Source of the DNA: Methanomicrobiales archaeon
GTDB lineage: Archaea; Halobacteriota; Methanomicrobia; Methanomicrobiales; Methanoculleaceae
Direction: 5' to 3'
Assembly (NCBI GenBank): GCA_012521035.1
Contig: JAAYND010000135.1
Coordinates: forward strand, 1 to 43,068
Length of the DNA stretch: 43,068 nt
Numbering within the stretch: position 1 is the first letter of the stretch; each line of letters begins with the position of its first letter. The notes beneath the pieces are model-generated. The model was not told the origin of the DNA. It ran no database searches and saw only the letters and a program-made list of their open reading frames with translations. This document shows, piece after piece, positions 37,851-41,685 of this stretch. The position numbers and the translations under genes are program-made.

Positions 37851-38360
37851 ATTGTCCGGGATGAGCGCGCGCTTTCACATACGCACGCCACCCTCCTGAT
37901 GGTCGCCCTCACCATCATCCTCGCCGCTCTCGTTCTGCTGATGGTGCTCGGGATGATCCCCACCTGGTCGTGGGCGGAGCCTGCACAACCGCCGATCATC
38001 ATCACCGGTATCCTCCACACCAGCACCGAGACCGGGGAGTTGACGTATGCAAGCCGGATCTTTCTCCTCAACAACGGCAGCACGGCATACAAGAACGATG
38101 ACCTGAAGGCAACCGTGTACAGGAACGACCAGCTGGTCGTCACCGTCGAGACCCTGAACGGCTATTACCTCATCTCGTCGCACCATTATGGGGTGCGGTA
38201 TATCCAGGGGCCAGGATGCTGTGACGACTACTGGAACCCCGGCGAGGAGATAGAGGTAGATCTCTCTGATAGAACTTTCAGCCCGGGCGAAAAGATTGCT
38301 GTGAAGATCATCGATAAAGAGACCCGGAAAGTGATCTCAGAGGATGCGACTGTAGCATGA
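37851..38360 (+). CDS. Archaeal type IV pilin-like protein (class III signal peptide, DUF1628-like)
   Basis: In frame upstream of the track ATG (37899) lies VRDERA|LSHTHATLLMVALTIILAALV, a PibD-type cleavage site followed by a hydrophobic helix. C-terminal 'W.PGE' and 'V.VKIID..T.KVIS'. The apparent start codon is ATT at 37851. Confidence 0.75.
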   Translation: MVRDERALSHTHATLLMVALTIILAALVLLMVLGMIPTWSWAEPAQPPIIITGILHTSTETGELTYASRIFLLNNGSTAYKNDDLKATVYRNDQLVVTVETLNGYYLISSHHYGVRYIQGPGCCDDYWNPGEEIEVDLSDRTFSPGEKIAVKIIDKETRKVISEDATVA

Positions 38361-38412
38361 GGAGACTGTCTCATAGACCATATATTTCTGTTAGAACACC
38401 TCTAAGTTCTCT

Positions 38413-38871
38413 ATGTTCAAAACGGTACTTGTAGCGGTGGATGGGTCTGAGATCGGTCACCGGGCGCTTGAAGAGGCACTGGATCTCGCCAGCGCCATGC
38501 AGGCTTCCGCGCATGCCGTGCATGTCGTCCAGACCGGCGTATACCCGACAATGATACTCAATAATCTCGAGCCCCCTGACATCGCCCAGCAGGCGGTTCT
38601 CGATTCACTCGAGCGCGAGGCCGACGAGATCCTTGCTGATACCGAGCGCCGGGCTGCCGCCACCGGCCTCACGATAACCCCACACAAGCGCCGGGGTCAC
38701 CCCGGGGCGGAGATCATCGCACTGGCGCAGGAACTCGGCGCCGACCTGACTGTTGTCGGATCGCACGGCAGGGGCCGGCTCGACCGCTTCTTCCTCGGGA
38801 GCGTCAGTTCCTATGTCGTCGATCACGCGATATCGACAGTCATGGTTGTCAGGGCAACCCTGACCGAATGA
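38413..38871 (+). CDS. Universal stress protein (UspA family)
   Basis: 'FKTVLVAVDGS', 'G.PG.EII' and 'VVGSHGRG....FLGSVS..V' motifs. Confidence 0.93.
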   Translation: MFKTVLVAVDGSEIGHRALEEALDLASAMQASAHAVHVVQTGVYPTMILNNLEPPDIAQQAVLDSLEREADEILADTERRAAATGLTITPHKRRGHPGAEIIALAQELGADLTVVGSHGRGRLDRFFLGSVSSYVVDHAISTVMVVRATLTE

Positions 38872-39412
38872 GTCCACGAGCAATGAGACGGGCCACCCTG
38901 ACGGGTTCGGGCACCCGGCCTTCGTACGTGACGTCGTTACAGAGCCTCCTGGCATCTTCAGGGGGGATGCCATAGGGGCGGATGAAGAGGTCGTATCCTG
39001 TGTGGAGCCGTATGGAAATCCGGTCACCGAGCCGCTGGTATGCCGCGAGTCTCCGGGTATCGCCGGGGAAGTGGCGGATTATATCCTCTGCGAGCCCCTC
39101 TGACTCCTCATAGGTGGTGACGATGACGGGAAGTCCGGTCGCATCCTGCACCACCACTGGATCGATGATGTTGTACCAGGCGATGACACTCCCGCTGATC
39201 ATCATGAGGTTGATGTCCCGGCGTCCGAGTCTATTAAAGAGCCTGATTATAGCATCGGTTGCATCCGACCCCCCGACCGTCACCCGGGCGAAAGCCACCC
39301 CATCGATCAGGAGATCCTTTCGCATAACAACACCGGCGATTGTGGACTCTTCCCGCCCCGAATAGCTCTCTGCGATGCCAAGGATGCGGAGCCCCGGTTT
39401 GGCTATGTGCAT
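38849..39412 (-). CDS. DUF99 family protein (endonuclease V-like / endonuclease dU)
   Basis: 'RILGIAES', 'VGG.DATD', 'G..IAWYNIID' and 'PEP.RVA' motifs. Confidence 0.85.
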   Translation of the reverse strand: MHIAKPGLRILGIAESYSGREESTIAGVVMRKDLLIDGVAFARVTVGGSDATDAIIRLFNRLGRRDINLMMISGSVIAWYNIIDPVVVQDATGLPVIVTTYEESEGLAEDIIRHFPGDTRRLAAYQRLGDRISIRLHTGYDLFIRPYGIPPEDARRLCNDVTYEGRVPEPVRVARLIARGLIRSGLP

Positions 39413-39452
39413 ACAAAGCCCTTATACCACCAGATCGAATAATAGTATACCG

Positions 39453-39680
39453 GTCAACTACCCCTCCCTGAAGGGAGGGGCTTGTGAACGGCTAAACAGG
39501 ACAAAACAGTTAGACTAGGAGGCAAGAAATTGCAGCAGCGTTTTGGGCTACAAGAACGGATGGGTGTTTCCCTAGCCTGTCCCTCTTCTGGGCACGCCGA
39601 ACCCGACGTACCTTTTGGTACTAAGCCTGTTTCGCAACTCCGAAGGGAAATGTTACCCCGGTTTGACCGGGTGGAAGGAA
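39453..39680 (+). ncRNA. omegaRNA / HEARO-like scaffold for IsrB
   Basis: GTCAACT (39453-59) pairs with AGTT-A-GAC (39508-15). There is an 8-bp hairpin at 39461-80 and a stem GGATGGG/CCTGTCC whose loop TTTCCCTAG can pair with CTAGG (39515-19) or AGGGAAA (39644-50). Further hairpins GTACC-TTTT-GGTAC (39608-21) and CCCGGT-TTG-ACCGGG (39657-71). Lies directly upstream of a PLMP-domain ORF. Confidence 0.82.
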
Positions 39681-39684
39681 TACC

Positions 39685-40731
39685 ATGAGAGTTCCAGTTC
39701 TGGATACTCATAGAAGACCGTTGATGCCGACGACGCCAAAACGTGCTCGTTTACTCCTCAAGCAGGGGAAAGCACGACCGTATTGGAACAAACTTGGCAT
39801 CTTCTGCATCATCCTGATGTATGACGTACAACCTGATAACCAGCAGCTGGTTGTCGGGATCGACCCGGGTAGTTCGTTTGAGGGCTGGTCTGTGGTCGGT
39901 ACTAAAGAGACCGCCTTGAACGGCATGTCTGAGGCACCAAAGCATGTAACAAATGCAGTAGAAACACGAAGGACGATGCGGCGTGCCAGGAGACACCGGA
40001 AGTGTTGGCGTCGTCCGGCCCGATTCAACAACCGGTTGAGTGACCGGAAATTTATACCTCCGAGCACGTTTGCCCGGTGGAACGCGAAGATCCGAATCAT
40101 TGAACAGTTACAGAAGATCCTGCCGATCACGGATGTGGTTGTCGAGGATGTTGCAGCAGTCTCGAAAAAGAACTGTCGCCGGTGGAACAAGAACTTCTCT
40201 CCGCTGGAGGTGGGGAAAAGATGGTTCTATACTGCGATCCGGGCACTTGGTCTTGACCTCTATCTTCGCACAGGATACGAGACCAAAGAACTCCGGGACC
40301 GGTTTGGTTTGAAGAAATCCAGCCAGAAGGACAAGAAGACATTCTCCTCTCATGCTGTTGATGCGTGGGTAATGGCCGCCGACATCTCCGGTGCAGAACA
40401 CCCCCCCGAGATCGGTCTGTACTACTGGACTCCGATCCGTGTACATCGCAGGCAATTGCACCGGTTCCAACCAGAGAAGGGAGGAATCAGAAAACCGTAT
40501 GGAGGAACGCGGTCGATGGGACTGACACGAGGAACACTGGTTCACCATATTAAGTATGGACTGACCTATATCGGGGGTACCTTGAAAAACCGCGTATCCC
40601 TGCATAGTTATGGCACCGGAAAGCGGGTGACACAAAATGCCAGAATCGAGGATTGTACAATCCAGACCAGAATCGCGTGGAGAACAGAATGGTATGCCGG
40701 GACAGGCAGACGGCATTCCTCTCCGGCTTGA
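39685..40731 (+). CDS. isrB: IsrB-type OMEGA RNA-guided nickase (RRXRR/PLMP, split RuvC, no HNH)
   Basis: PLMP at aa 12-15; RuvC-I GID60PG; Arg-rich bridge helix RRTMRRARRHR; RuvC-II VVE154D; RuvC-III SH223AVD226A. Only about 70 aa separate RuvC-II and III, with no HNH/Zn motif. 348 aa; RBS GGAAGGA. Confidence 0.9.
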   Translation: MRVPVLDTHRRPLMPTTPKRARLLLKQGKARPYWNKLGIFCIILMYDVQPDNQQLVVGIDPGSSFEGWSVVGTKETALNGMSEAPKHVTNAVETRRTMRRARRHRKCWRRPARFNNRLSDRKFIPPSTFARWNAKIRIIEQLQKILPITDVVVEDVAAVSKKNCRRWNKNFSPLEVGKRWFYTAIRALGLDLYLRTGYETKELRDRFGLKKSSQKDKKTFSSHAVDAWVMAADISGAEHPPEIGLYYWTPIRVHRRQLHRFQPEKGGIRKPYGGTRSMGLTRGTLVHHIKYGLTYIGGTLKNRVSLHSYGTGKRVTQNARIEDCTIQTRIAWRTEWYAGTGRRHSSPA

Positions 40732-40752
40732 AGGCCGGGGTCTCCTGCCTAT

Positions 40753-41685
40753 ATGAAGATGAAGATCGAGCGAGGTGAGGTATGTATCTTTATCCCTACG
40801 TTAAACGAAGCCCCGACGATCGGTGACCTGGTCAGGGAGTTTCAGGATCGGGGTTTTGAACACATCCTCGTCATGGACGGGAACAGCACCGATGGCACCC
40901 CGGATATCGCACGGGCCGCGGGGGCGACTGTCCGGACGCAGACCGGGAGGGGGAAGGGCAACGCCATCATCGAGGCCGTGAGGATTATCGACAGGCCATA
41001 TGTGCTTATGCTCGACGGTGATGGCACCTACGCCCCTGATGATGCTGAAGCGATGCTCGATCCGCTCGCCCTCGGGTTTGATCACGTCATAGGCAACCGC
41101 CTGGTCAACCCGGATGCGGAGGCGTTCACGCGGCTCAACCTTCTTGGAAACCAGATCCTCAACCTGACATTCAAGATCGCCCACGGGCGAGATCTCCGCG
41201 ATATCCTCTCCGGTTACCGTGCCTTTACCCTCCACTCGATCAGGCAGATGACCCTCAAAGAGGCGGGATTTGAGATCGAGACGGAGATGGCGGTCGAGGC
41301 GGTGAGGAACGGGCAGCATATCACAGTCGTCCCGATCCGGTATCTCTCAAGACCGGGCACGGTCACCAAACTCGATCCCTTCCAGGACGGCGTGAGGATC
41401 TTCTCGACCATATACCGCCTCGCAAAGATGAACAACCCGATCTTTTATTTCGGGATAATCGGGCTATTCATATCGCTCCTGGGAGGAGCCACCGGTGTAT
41501 ACGTTGTTTATGAGTGGCTCAGGAATATCGAGCATCTGCCGCTCACCATCCTCACGGTCCTCCTGATCACCATAGGGTTTCAGATCTTCATGTTCGGCGT
41601 TATCAGCGATATGCTGCTTGCGTTTCACCGTGAGACGACCCGCCAGATCGAGCAGTTACAGCGCCCGCCCGAACCTCCCCGATAG
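40753..41685 (+). CDS. aglJ: GT2 dolichol-phosphate glycosyltransferase, AglJ-like (S-layer N-glycosylation)
   Basis: IPTLNE..TIG, DGNSTDGT, GKG.A, DGDGTY, D.LSGYRA and GFEIETE motifs, plus two C-terminal TM helices. Start at 40753 or 40759. Confidence 0.85.
   Translation: MKMKIERGEVCIFIPTLNEAPTIGDLVREFQDRGFEHILVMDGNSTDGTPDIARAAGATVRTQTGRGKGNAIIEAVRIIDRPYVLMLDGDGTYAPDDAEAMLDPLALGFDHVIGNRLVNPDAEAFTRLNLLGNQILNLTFKIAHGRDLRDILSGYRAFTLHSIRQMTLKEAGFEIETEMAVEAVRNGQHITVVPIRYLSRPGTVTKLDPFQDGVRIFSTIYRLAKMNNPIFYFGIIGLFISLLGGATGVYVVYEWLRNIEHLPLTILTVLLITIGFQIFMFGVISDMLLAFHRETTRQIEQLQRPPEPPR

What the first reader, a model, noticed from the sequence alone, without database searches (positions are those of the whole stretch)
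39453..40758. Complete, apparently intact archaeal IsrB-omegaRNA (OMEGA) RNA-guided nickase element
Seen: a 348-aa ORF with PLMP, RuvC-I D60, bridge helix, RuvC-II E154 and RuvC-III H223/D226, and no HNH insertion. It follows a ~230-nt structured non-coding leader beginning GTCAACTACCCC and is bounded by matching TGAA-loop hairpins. Established: this architecture defines IsrB, the HNH-less relative of IscB (the Cas9 ancestor), which acts with an omegaRNA as a programmable nickase. Inference: catalytic residues, scaffold and both ends are intact, so this is a candidate active, very compact RNA-guided enzyme from a methanogen. The family is known; this member may be uncharacterised.
Basis: partly seen in the sequence, partly recalled or inferred. 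Interest (0 to 1): 0.85.

Follow-up and report, generated by a model that had tools for sequence, protein, structure and literature searches.

The report
IsrB transposon that parks at start codons
This is a complete small jumping gene from a methane-making archaeon that encodes a known type of compact, predicted RNA-guided DNA-nicking enzyme; it sits exactly in front of a host gene's start codon, as most related copies do, likely so that host transcription supplies its guide RNA while the host gene stays unbroken.

Summary
Observation confirmed. 39453-40758 is a non-autonomous IS200/IS605 (ISC1) element: a 232-nt omegaRNA scaffold, then a 348-aa IsrB. The best PDB match is DtIsrB (E 1e-53); there is no HNH, and D60/E154/H223/D226 are invariant in 81 aligned proteins. 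Empty sites in 28 of 29 relatives fix both ends to the base, with no target duplication.

The element sits directly before the ATGA start codon of aglJ. 33 of 47 related isrB-element junctions also abut a host start codon. About 3-5% of ATGA sites in this genome are starts (14-17% of non-disrupting sites). One tnpB group with the same target is at starts in 2 of 30 cases, but a second tnpB group in 11 of 14.

'Active' is not shown. A TATA-like box 31 nt upstream predicts an almost guide-less RNA at this locus, and three conserved residues are changed. The enzyme family is known and common (2668 homologues). The start-codon habit was not found in the papers I could read, but two founding papers were unavailable.

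The parts
39413..39452 (.). Host intergenic DNA between the divergent endonuclease dU gene and the element: native aglJ upstream region and source of the 5' guide
   Evidence: Same sequence lies directly before the aglJ ATG in empty-site relatives
39422..39426 (+). TATA-like box TTATA, 31 nt before the junction (predicted aglJ promoter, near-leaderless)
   Evidence: Top-scoring site in 38300-40760 with a matrix built from this genome; falls on the genome-wide AT-rich peak at -34..-28; CTTAT conserved in relatives; prediction only
39453..39684 (+). omegaRNA scaffold, 232 nt, including the transposon right end
   Evidence: HEARO model E 1e-11, below gathering score; 75-pair model, 94% of cells paired, 26 pairs with two-sided change in 22 copies
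39461..39484 (+). Right-end hairpin (SL1) plus CTTG (CAAG on the minus strand), the predicted DNA guide for the TGAC cleavage site
   Evidence: 6 of 8 pairs covary; guide/cleavage pairing rule recalled from IS608, sequence
39489..39599 (+). Predicted adaptor pseudoknot: 39489-39492 with 39596-39599
   Evidence: 3 of 4 pairs kept, no two-sided change, so not supported by covariation; analogy to DtIsrB SL2-SL5
39567..39650 (+). Predicted nexus pseudoknot: 39567-39573 with 39644-39650
   Evidence: 92% of cells paired, one pair with a two-sided change in 3 related copies; further compensatory changes seen by eye in two Chloroflexota copies
39685..40731 (+). isrB: PLMP, split RuvC (D60, E154, H223, D226), bridge helix, no HNH, TAM-interacting domain with R314/Q317
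40721..40758 (+). Left end: hairpin 40721-40740 (holds the isrB stop), TCTC 40741-40744 (GAGA on the minus strand, predicted DNA guide), terminal TATATGAAG
   Evidence: Same terminal bases in copies at unrelated sites; guide reads GAGT or AAGAGT-type in 5 of the 6 TTGA-target ends shown, the sixth lacks it
40759..40762 (+). Target tetranucleotide ATGA = predicted TAM = start codon of aglJ
   Evidence: Empty sites; N|ATGA target known for ISC1
40759..41685 (+). Host aglJ, S-layer N-glycosyltransferase; intact; true start 40759, not 40753
   Evidence: TIGR04182 above cut-off; orthologue starts
38849..39412 (-). Host endonuclease dU gene, divergent neighbour
   Evidence: PF01949

Best explanation
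This is a non-autonomous IS200/IS605-type transposon carrying IsrB and its omegaRNA, inserted without target duplication exactly in front of the ATGA start codon of aglJ, and its family likely persists at start codons because a host transcript running into the element supplies the guide and the isrB message while the host reading frame stays whole. Shown: boundaries, target, protein fold and residues, RNA covariation, and the start-codon excess. Inferred steps: (1) a TnpA from another IS605 element excises and inserts the single-stranded element, reading ATGA through the element's own GAGA DNA guide. (2) Host transcription makes [5' flank = guide]-[scaffold]-[isrB]-[host gene]. (3) The IsrB-omegaRNA complex recognises flank+ATGA, which exists only at an empty allele, and nicks one strand through R314/Q317 TAM reading. 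(4) Repair from a filled chromosome copy restores the element, so copies at transcribed, non-disrupting sites are the ones kept. At this particular locus step 2 is doubtful: the nearest promoter would give only a few guide bases unless longer read-through from upstream is processed.
For: Identity. Purifying selection, dN/dS 0.06-0.12 against three relatives; a fourth pair was saturated. Exact empty sites in 28 of 29 relatives; 3 of them carry the exact 14-nt flank+ATGAAG target, which is absent from this genome. Start codons at 33 of 47 isrB junctions, same count by a mechanical rule; background 2.9% of ATGA and 4.8% of ATGAA sites, 14-17% of non-disrupting sites; binomial p 5e-7 for 29 of 43 distinct sites even against an assumed 30%. 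Same-target tnpB group A: 2 of 30; within one genome (G008) isrB 10 of 13 against tnpB 0 of 15, Fisher 2e-5. Distant archaeal isrB copies: 4 of 6 with readable downstream DNA are followed by a Pfam-confirmed gene start (junctions not checked by empty sites). DtIsrB R323/Q326 align to R314/Q317. A tnpA with a similar hairpin exists in the genome. iscB guides need outside transcription and show upstream-orientation bias (Meers preprint passages).
Against: tnpB group B, which needs no outside guide, is also at starts in 11 of 14 cases, so guide need is not the only route to this pattern. The TATA-like box at -31 predicts a near guide-less RNA here. S119, T89 and Q327 depart from conserved residues. 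The isrB stop lies 27 nt before the aglJ ATG, and about 20 nt nearly abolished reinitiation in Haloferax and E. coli (abstract); no Shine-Dalgarno motif is evident in the left end, so how aglJ is translated is unexplained. The null comes from a crude home-made gene caller (79% coding). Copies cluster in a few genomes and are not independent. Restorative homing is cited for IscB and TnpB but only nuclease activity for IsrB (review passages).
Confidence: 0.62

Rival explanations
1. Insertion bias: TnpA itself inserts preferentially at ATGA in start regions (A-rich, weakly folded or transiently single-stranded DNA). isrB elements survive there because they are co-directional, and tnpB group A is purged because it cuts the gene from its promoter. 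IsrB plays no part in the pattern.
For: tnpB group B shows the same excess (11 of 14) and carries its own TATA-like box and GGAGGTGA facing the host gene, which would make such sites harmless. Several host genes are hit in two genomes by different element variants (birA, argF, an oxidoreductase, an ABC ATPase).
Against: No extended sequence consensus beyond ATGA(A/R) in the 47 targets. 5' flanks are not enriched for leaderless promoters: matrix score above 5 in 3 of 30, background 12%. Repeated hits are compatible with chance among a few hundred sites (inference).
Confidence: 0.25
2. Pure tolerance filter: insertions are random at ATGA, those inside genes are removed, and start codons are simply a large share of what remains.
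For: 79% of ATGA sites lie inside called genes; the gene caller under-calls genes, so the intergenic share is overestimated.
Against: Starts are 14-17% of non-disrupting sites against 70% observed. Group A tnpB elements show that non-start ATGA sites are plentiful and tolerated in the same genome (0 of 15 at starts).
Confidence: 0.1
3. This copy is a mute passenger (not exclusive of the above): the enzyme may work when given a guide, but at this locus the RNA starts within a few bases of the scaffold, so no self-targeting complex forms.
For: TTATA at -31, on the genome's leaderless peak; only 40 nt of intergenic DNA, shared with a divergent gene; three departures from conserved residues.
Against: The upstream usp gene is on the same strand with no terminator-like site found on that strand by a bacterial-type scan, so read-through is possible. 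The same insertion is held in a second genome (G022) whose available 329 nt differ at 28 positions, and here ORF and scaffold are intact.
Confidence: 0.4

Closest known systems
DtIsrB-omegaRNA (Desulfovirgula thermocuniculi; PDB 8DMB; Hirano et al. 2022, PMC9581776; read parts 1-3 of 7 of the main text)
   Same: Size, PLMP/RuvC/BH/TI layout, no HNH, 34% identity in the fold match; R100, R104, F119, R323, Q326 equivalents kept; group-B-like RNA with SL2-SL5 and SL4-nexus pseudoknots predicted; NTGA-type TAM matches the ATGA target.
   Different: Archaeal host; scaffold 232 nt against 262 nt, with no SL8; R124 equivalent is S119 and N265 equivalent is Q262; activity untested.
ISC1 transposons, e.g. 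ISC1-1_MA (Kapitonov et al. 2016, PMC4810608; passages read)
   Same: Non-autonomous, 5'-GT terminus, N|ATGA target, no duplication, left end shared with IS605B tnpB elements of opposite gene orientation.
   Different: Their methanogen examples are HNH-containing ISC2; the word 'codon' does not occur in the main text, so a start-codon link is not made there.
IscB of Geobacillus ISGst5 (Meers et al., bioRxiv 10.1101/2023.03.14.532601; passages read)
   Same: TAM TTCAT (= ATGAA on this strand); guide depends on outside transcription; bias for co-oriented upstream genes, attributed to preferential insertion or retention.
   Different: IscB makes double-strand breaks; the passages found concern the upstream gene's orientation, not precise abutment to the downstream start codon.
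HEARO RNA (Rfam RF02033)
   Same: Full-length match 39453-39656, E 1e-11.
   Different: 62 bits, below the 83-bit family threshold; the associated ORF has no HNH.

Membership tests
IsrB (IscB1) | N-terminal PLMP domain and RRXRR bridge helix | tested here: met
   PF14239 145 bits against cut-off 25; alignment to 8DMB
IsrB (IscB1) | Split RuvC with D, E, H, D catalytic residues | tested here: met
   Invariant in 81 of 81; RuvC fold hits
IsrB (IscB1) | No HNH domain between RuvC II and III | tested here: met
   Continuous alignment to DtIsrB; no HNH family hit
IsrB (IscB1) | Structured omegaRNA 5' of the ORF with two pseudoknots | tested here: met
   Covariation 0 of 500 shuffles, slid controls far lower; nexus pseudoknot weakly covaries, adaptor pseudoknot conserved but without covariation
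IsrB (IscB1) | Guide- and TAM-dependent nicking of dsDNA | not testable with these tools
   Needs in vitro assay
IsrB (IscB1) | omegaRNA expressed with a 5' guide of usable length | tested here: inconclusive
   Only assembled contigs were available; they cannot show RNA ends or strand; the promoter prediction argues for a very short guide
IS200/IS605 (ISC1) element | Subterminal hairpins, no terminal inverted repeats | tested here: met
IS200/IS605 (ISC1) element | Insertion next to a fixed 4-5 nt target without duplication | tested here: met
   28 empty sites; ATGA next to the projected end in 47 of 47 isrB junctions, partly by construction because ATGA was used to set the exact base
IS200/IS605 (ISC1) element | Mobilised by a Y1 TnpA (in trans here) | tested here: inconclusive
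   One tnpA in the 87%-complete genome; many polymorphic sites show past mobility; compatibility not assayed
IscB (guided_IscB NF040563) | HNH insertion and full-length model score | tested here: not met
   130 bits against cut-off 175, residues 5-157 only
HEARO RNA (RF02033) | Score at or above the gathering threshold | tested here: not met
   62.1 against 83 bits
IStron (self-splicing IS605) | Group I intron within the element | tested here: not met
   No Rfam intron match; no joint removing the whole element in 8 runs' contigs, which is weak evidence

The most novel reading that the evidence does not exclude
Archaeal IsrB elements are 'start-codon parasites'. Because their target and TAM is ATGA, they slot between a gene's leader and its ATG, convert the host 5' UTR into their guide RNA, and act as a self-homing first cistron of essential genes (lysS, carA, metK, pyrH, thrS). 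The host gene is then translated past a 40-nt transposon-end hairpin by a route that does not need ordinary coupling; in a sister tnpB group this may be a Shine-Dalgarno site acting across the hairpin.
Probability: 0.35. Interest if true: 0.72.

Novelty: new variant of a known kind. Interest (0 to 1): 0.52.

Why it matters
The enzyme alone adds one more archaeal member, with a somewhat shorter RNA (232 nt), to a known and abundant family of compact nickases. The insertion pattern matters more. It offers a concrete answer to how elements whose guide must be transcribed from outside survive in gene-dense genomes, and an explanation for ATGA-type TAMs. It also provides a natural within-genome experiment (isrB 10 of 13 against tnpB 0 of 15 at start codons with the same target) on the open question of preferential insertion versus preferential retention. 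Finally, it flags a set of essential archaeal genes whose translation must start behind a transposon end.

Tried and rejected
Rfam at the gathering threshold gave only two tRNAs. Single-sequence folding was uninformative (z -0.39).

ATGAAG ATGAAG as a 6-bp target duplication: rejected, because the first copy is element sequence at unrelated sites. aglJ start at 40753: rejected.

Translational coupling as the general way host genes are expressed: disfavoured here (27 nt). The distance is 5-6 nt in 6 of 15 copies checked and 20-27 nt in 9.

Enrichment for leaderless promoters among targets: not seen. Domestication as a nuclease-dead regulator: no support, because the catalytic residues are intact and the sites are polymorphic.

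Expression: 8 RNA-labelled runs were laid, all as contigs. High depth over the RNA and left end may reflect multi-copy derivatives or DNA. One contig begins 2 nt upstream of the element (X11), which fits a short guide but equally a repeat-boundary break, so it is not used as evidence. Contigs in 3 of the first 4 runs bridge the left end into aglJ, so the junction is not an assembly artefact.

The metagenome pattern scan gave 3 loci, all one site. The sigma-70 promoter scan does not apply to archaea. Earlier-findings searches were empty.

Literature: seven searches (all but 74 aimed at a start-codon or archaeal link) listed no paper stating a start-codon link; I saw most only as listings. Altae-Tran 2021, Weinberg 2009 and the published Meers 2023 were not held, and no supplements were read. 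These may already mention the pattern.

Rows left out of the counts: 2 junctions with no NTGA (L101, L110) and 2 such matches later (L192 and a second end in L217); 1 unassigned left end (L091); 6 TTGA-target ends; and same-site duplicates (L099, L193; window = L004). The per-genome candidate cap (16) means copy lists are partial.

Full report
Observation. The ORF, motifs and leader are as described. Pfam gives only RRXRR above cut-off, and the NCBIfam IscB model is matched over the N-terminal half and below cut-off. The best solved relative by sequence, profile and predicted fold is DtIsrB (E 1.3e-53, 2.4e-65, 1.5e-27; model mean pLDDT 81). D60, E154, H223 and D226 are invariant in the 81 proteins aligned; these were the window protein and 80 of the 120 listed hits. 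Mapping the DtIsrB residues tested by Hirano et al. through the printed alignment: R100, R104, F119, R323 and Q326 are kept as R95, R99, F114, R314 and Q317; N265 is Q262 (the family norm, 63 of 80); R124 is S119 (R in 54 of 80). T89 and Q327 also depart from near-invariant columns. dN/dS of 0.06-0.12 shows purifying selection on the family. Named relatives are Methanoculleus and Methanocalculus, so the methanogen origin is supported. The family is common in databases (2668 hits) but patchy in genomes: 13 of 401 in the order and 10 of 401 in the phylum.

RNA. The HEARO model matches 39453-39656 at 62 bits, significant but below threshold. I drew a 75-pair model by analogy to the DtIsrB RNA and counted it on 22 related copies: 94% of cells pair and 26 pairs show two-sided changes. 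No shuffle of 500 reached these values and slid controls fell to 32-48%. The copies are related and the model was drawn on one of them, which inflates these figures. The SL4-nexus pseudoknot has one covarying pair; the adaptor pseudoknot is conserved without covariation. The scaffold is about 30 nt shorter than DtIsrB's.

Element. In 28 of 29 relatives' aglJ loci fetched, the DNA that precedes 39453 runs straight into the aglJ ATG; the 29th (G022) carries the same insertion. So the element is 39453-40758, there is no duplication, and the target is N|ATGA, as Kapitonov et al. found for ISC1. Both ends obey the IS608-type DNA-guide rule (rule recalled, not from a call): GAGA at the left-end hairpin foot for TCAT, and CAAG at the right end for TGAC. 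The left-end guide ends in GAGT in five of six related ends that target TTGA. The genome has one full isrB, one left-end remnant before an mre11-like gene and one tnpA-tnpB element with a similar hairpin.

Start-codon pattern. I collected left-end junctions from the family-wide DNA searches plus loci, then classed them by what lies inside the end and by what follows. Of 47 isrB-element junctions, 33 open a host gene at its N-terminus, including birA, argF, lysS, carA, metK, pyrH, purN, cobN and NAD kinase (names from Pfam domains plus recall). A mechanical rule (frame of at least 100 codons, or at least 60 if open at the locus end, with coding-like codon use) also gives 33 of 47. In this genome 2.9% of ATGA and 4.8% of ATGAA sites are called starts, 14-17% of non-disrupting sites are starts, and 21-27% open a 100-codon frame (crude caller). 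tnpB elements with the same target and near-identical ends (group A) are at starts in 2 of 30 cases; in G008 alone the split is 10 of 13 against 0 of 15. Against my reading, tnpB group B is at starts in 11 of 14 cases. It carries a TATA-like box and a Shine-Dalgarno motif facing the host gene, which suggests that any element able to keep the host gene expressed accumulates at starts. Four of six distant archaeal isrB copies with readable downstream DNA are also followed by gene starts. Copies are clustered in a few genomes, so the p-values overstate.

Mechanism. iscB-type guides are transcribed from outside the element, and IsrB nicks next to NTGA TAMs. An insertion at a start codon puts the element under a host promoter in the right orientation without breaking a frame, and excision regenerates flank+ATGA, the nickase's predicted target. 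Retention through nick-triggered repair is my preferred cause of the excess (inferred; homing by a nickase is not shown in what I read). TnpA insertion bias is the main rival and pure tolerance the weakest. Two things remain unexplained. First, at this locus the best promoter-like site is 31 nt upstream, on the genome's leaderless peak, so the native guide may be only a few bases; most other copies have flanks without such a box. Second, aglJ must be translated 27 nt after the isrB stop and behind a hairpin, too far for reinitiation by the figures of Huber et al. (abstract). Public RNA-labelled runs hold the element but only as contigs, which confirm the aglJ junction in three runs and say nothing reliable about ends or expression.

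Verdict. The feature is real, intact-looking and correctly identified: a new member of a known enzyme family (about 0.3 on its own). The start-codon habit lifts it to a new variant of moderate interest. I could not read Altae-Tran 2021 or Weinberg 2009 or any supplements, so prior mention is not excluded.

Noticed in passing
L096, L098, L109, L172, L174-L176, L180, L194, L202 (about 130 nt inside the left end): IS605 tnpB 'group B' ends carry, on the host-facing strand, a TATA-like box near -89 and (G)GAGGTGA directly 5' of the 45-nt end hairpin, with the target ATGA 6-7 nt after it. This may be an outward promoter plus a Shine-Dalgarno site working across a hairpin.
   Followed up: partly
G000:C191:8473-8589 (L108): Decayed isrB left-end remnant directly before the ATG of an mre11-like gene, in a divergent promoter region shared with an AAA ATPase gene.
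   Followed up: partly
L077, L147: Copies that have lost most of the left-end hairpin yet still abut a host start codon (PHP protein, pyrH-like kinase).
   Followed up: no
L076, L077, L080, L082, L115, L121, L122, L051: Many internally deleted derivatives keep the whole omegaRNA and both ends but lose most of isrB; possible trans-acting guide cassettes.
   Followed up: no
window 40395-40405: Five substitutions in 11 nt relative to contigs in most of the eight runs laid (E238/H239/P241 here, K/R/T there); a private allele or an assembly error.
   Followed up: no
L092-L093, L130-L138 versus window 40696-40758: tnpB elements of opposite gene orientation share an almost identical left end with the isrB element, suggesting cargo exchange between ends.
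   Followed up: partly
L035:2577-3413: RNase H fused to a TrmO-type domain in a relative.
   Followed up: no
window 38849-38871: usp and endonuclease dU genes converge with a 23-nt overlap, which could allow read-through toward the element.
   Followed up: partly
G000:C156:3058-3196 and C259:7816-7954: Two contig-end copies of another IS605-type right end with a similar first hairpin.
   Followed up: no
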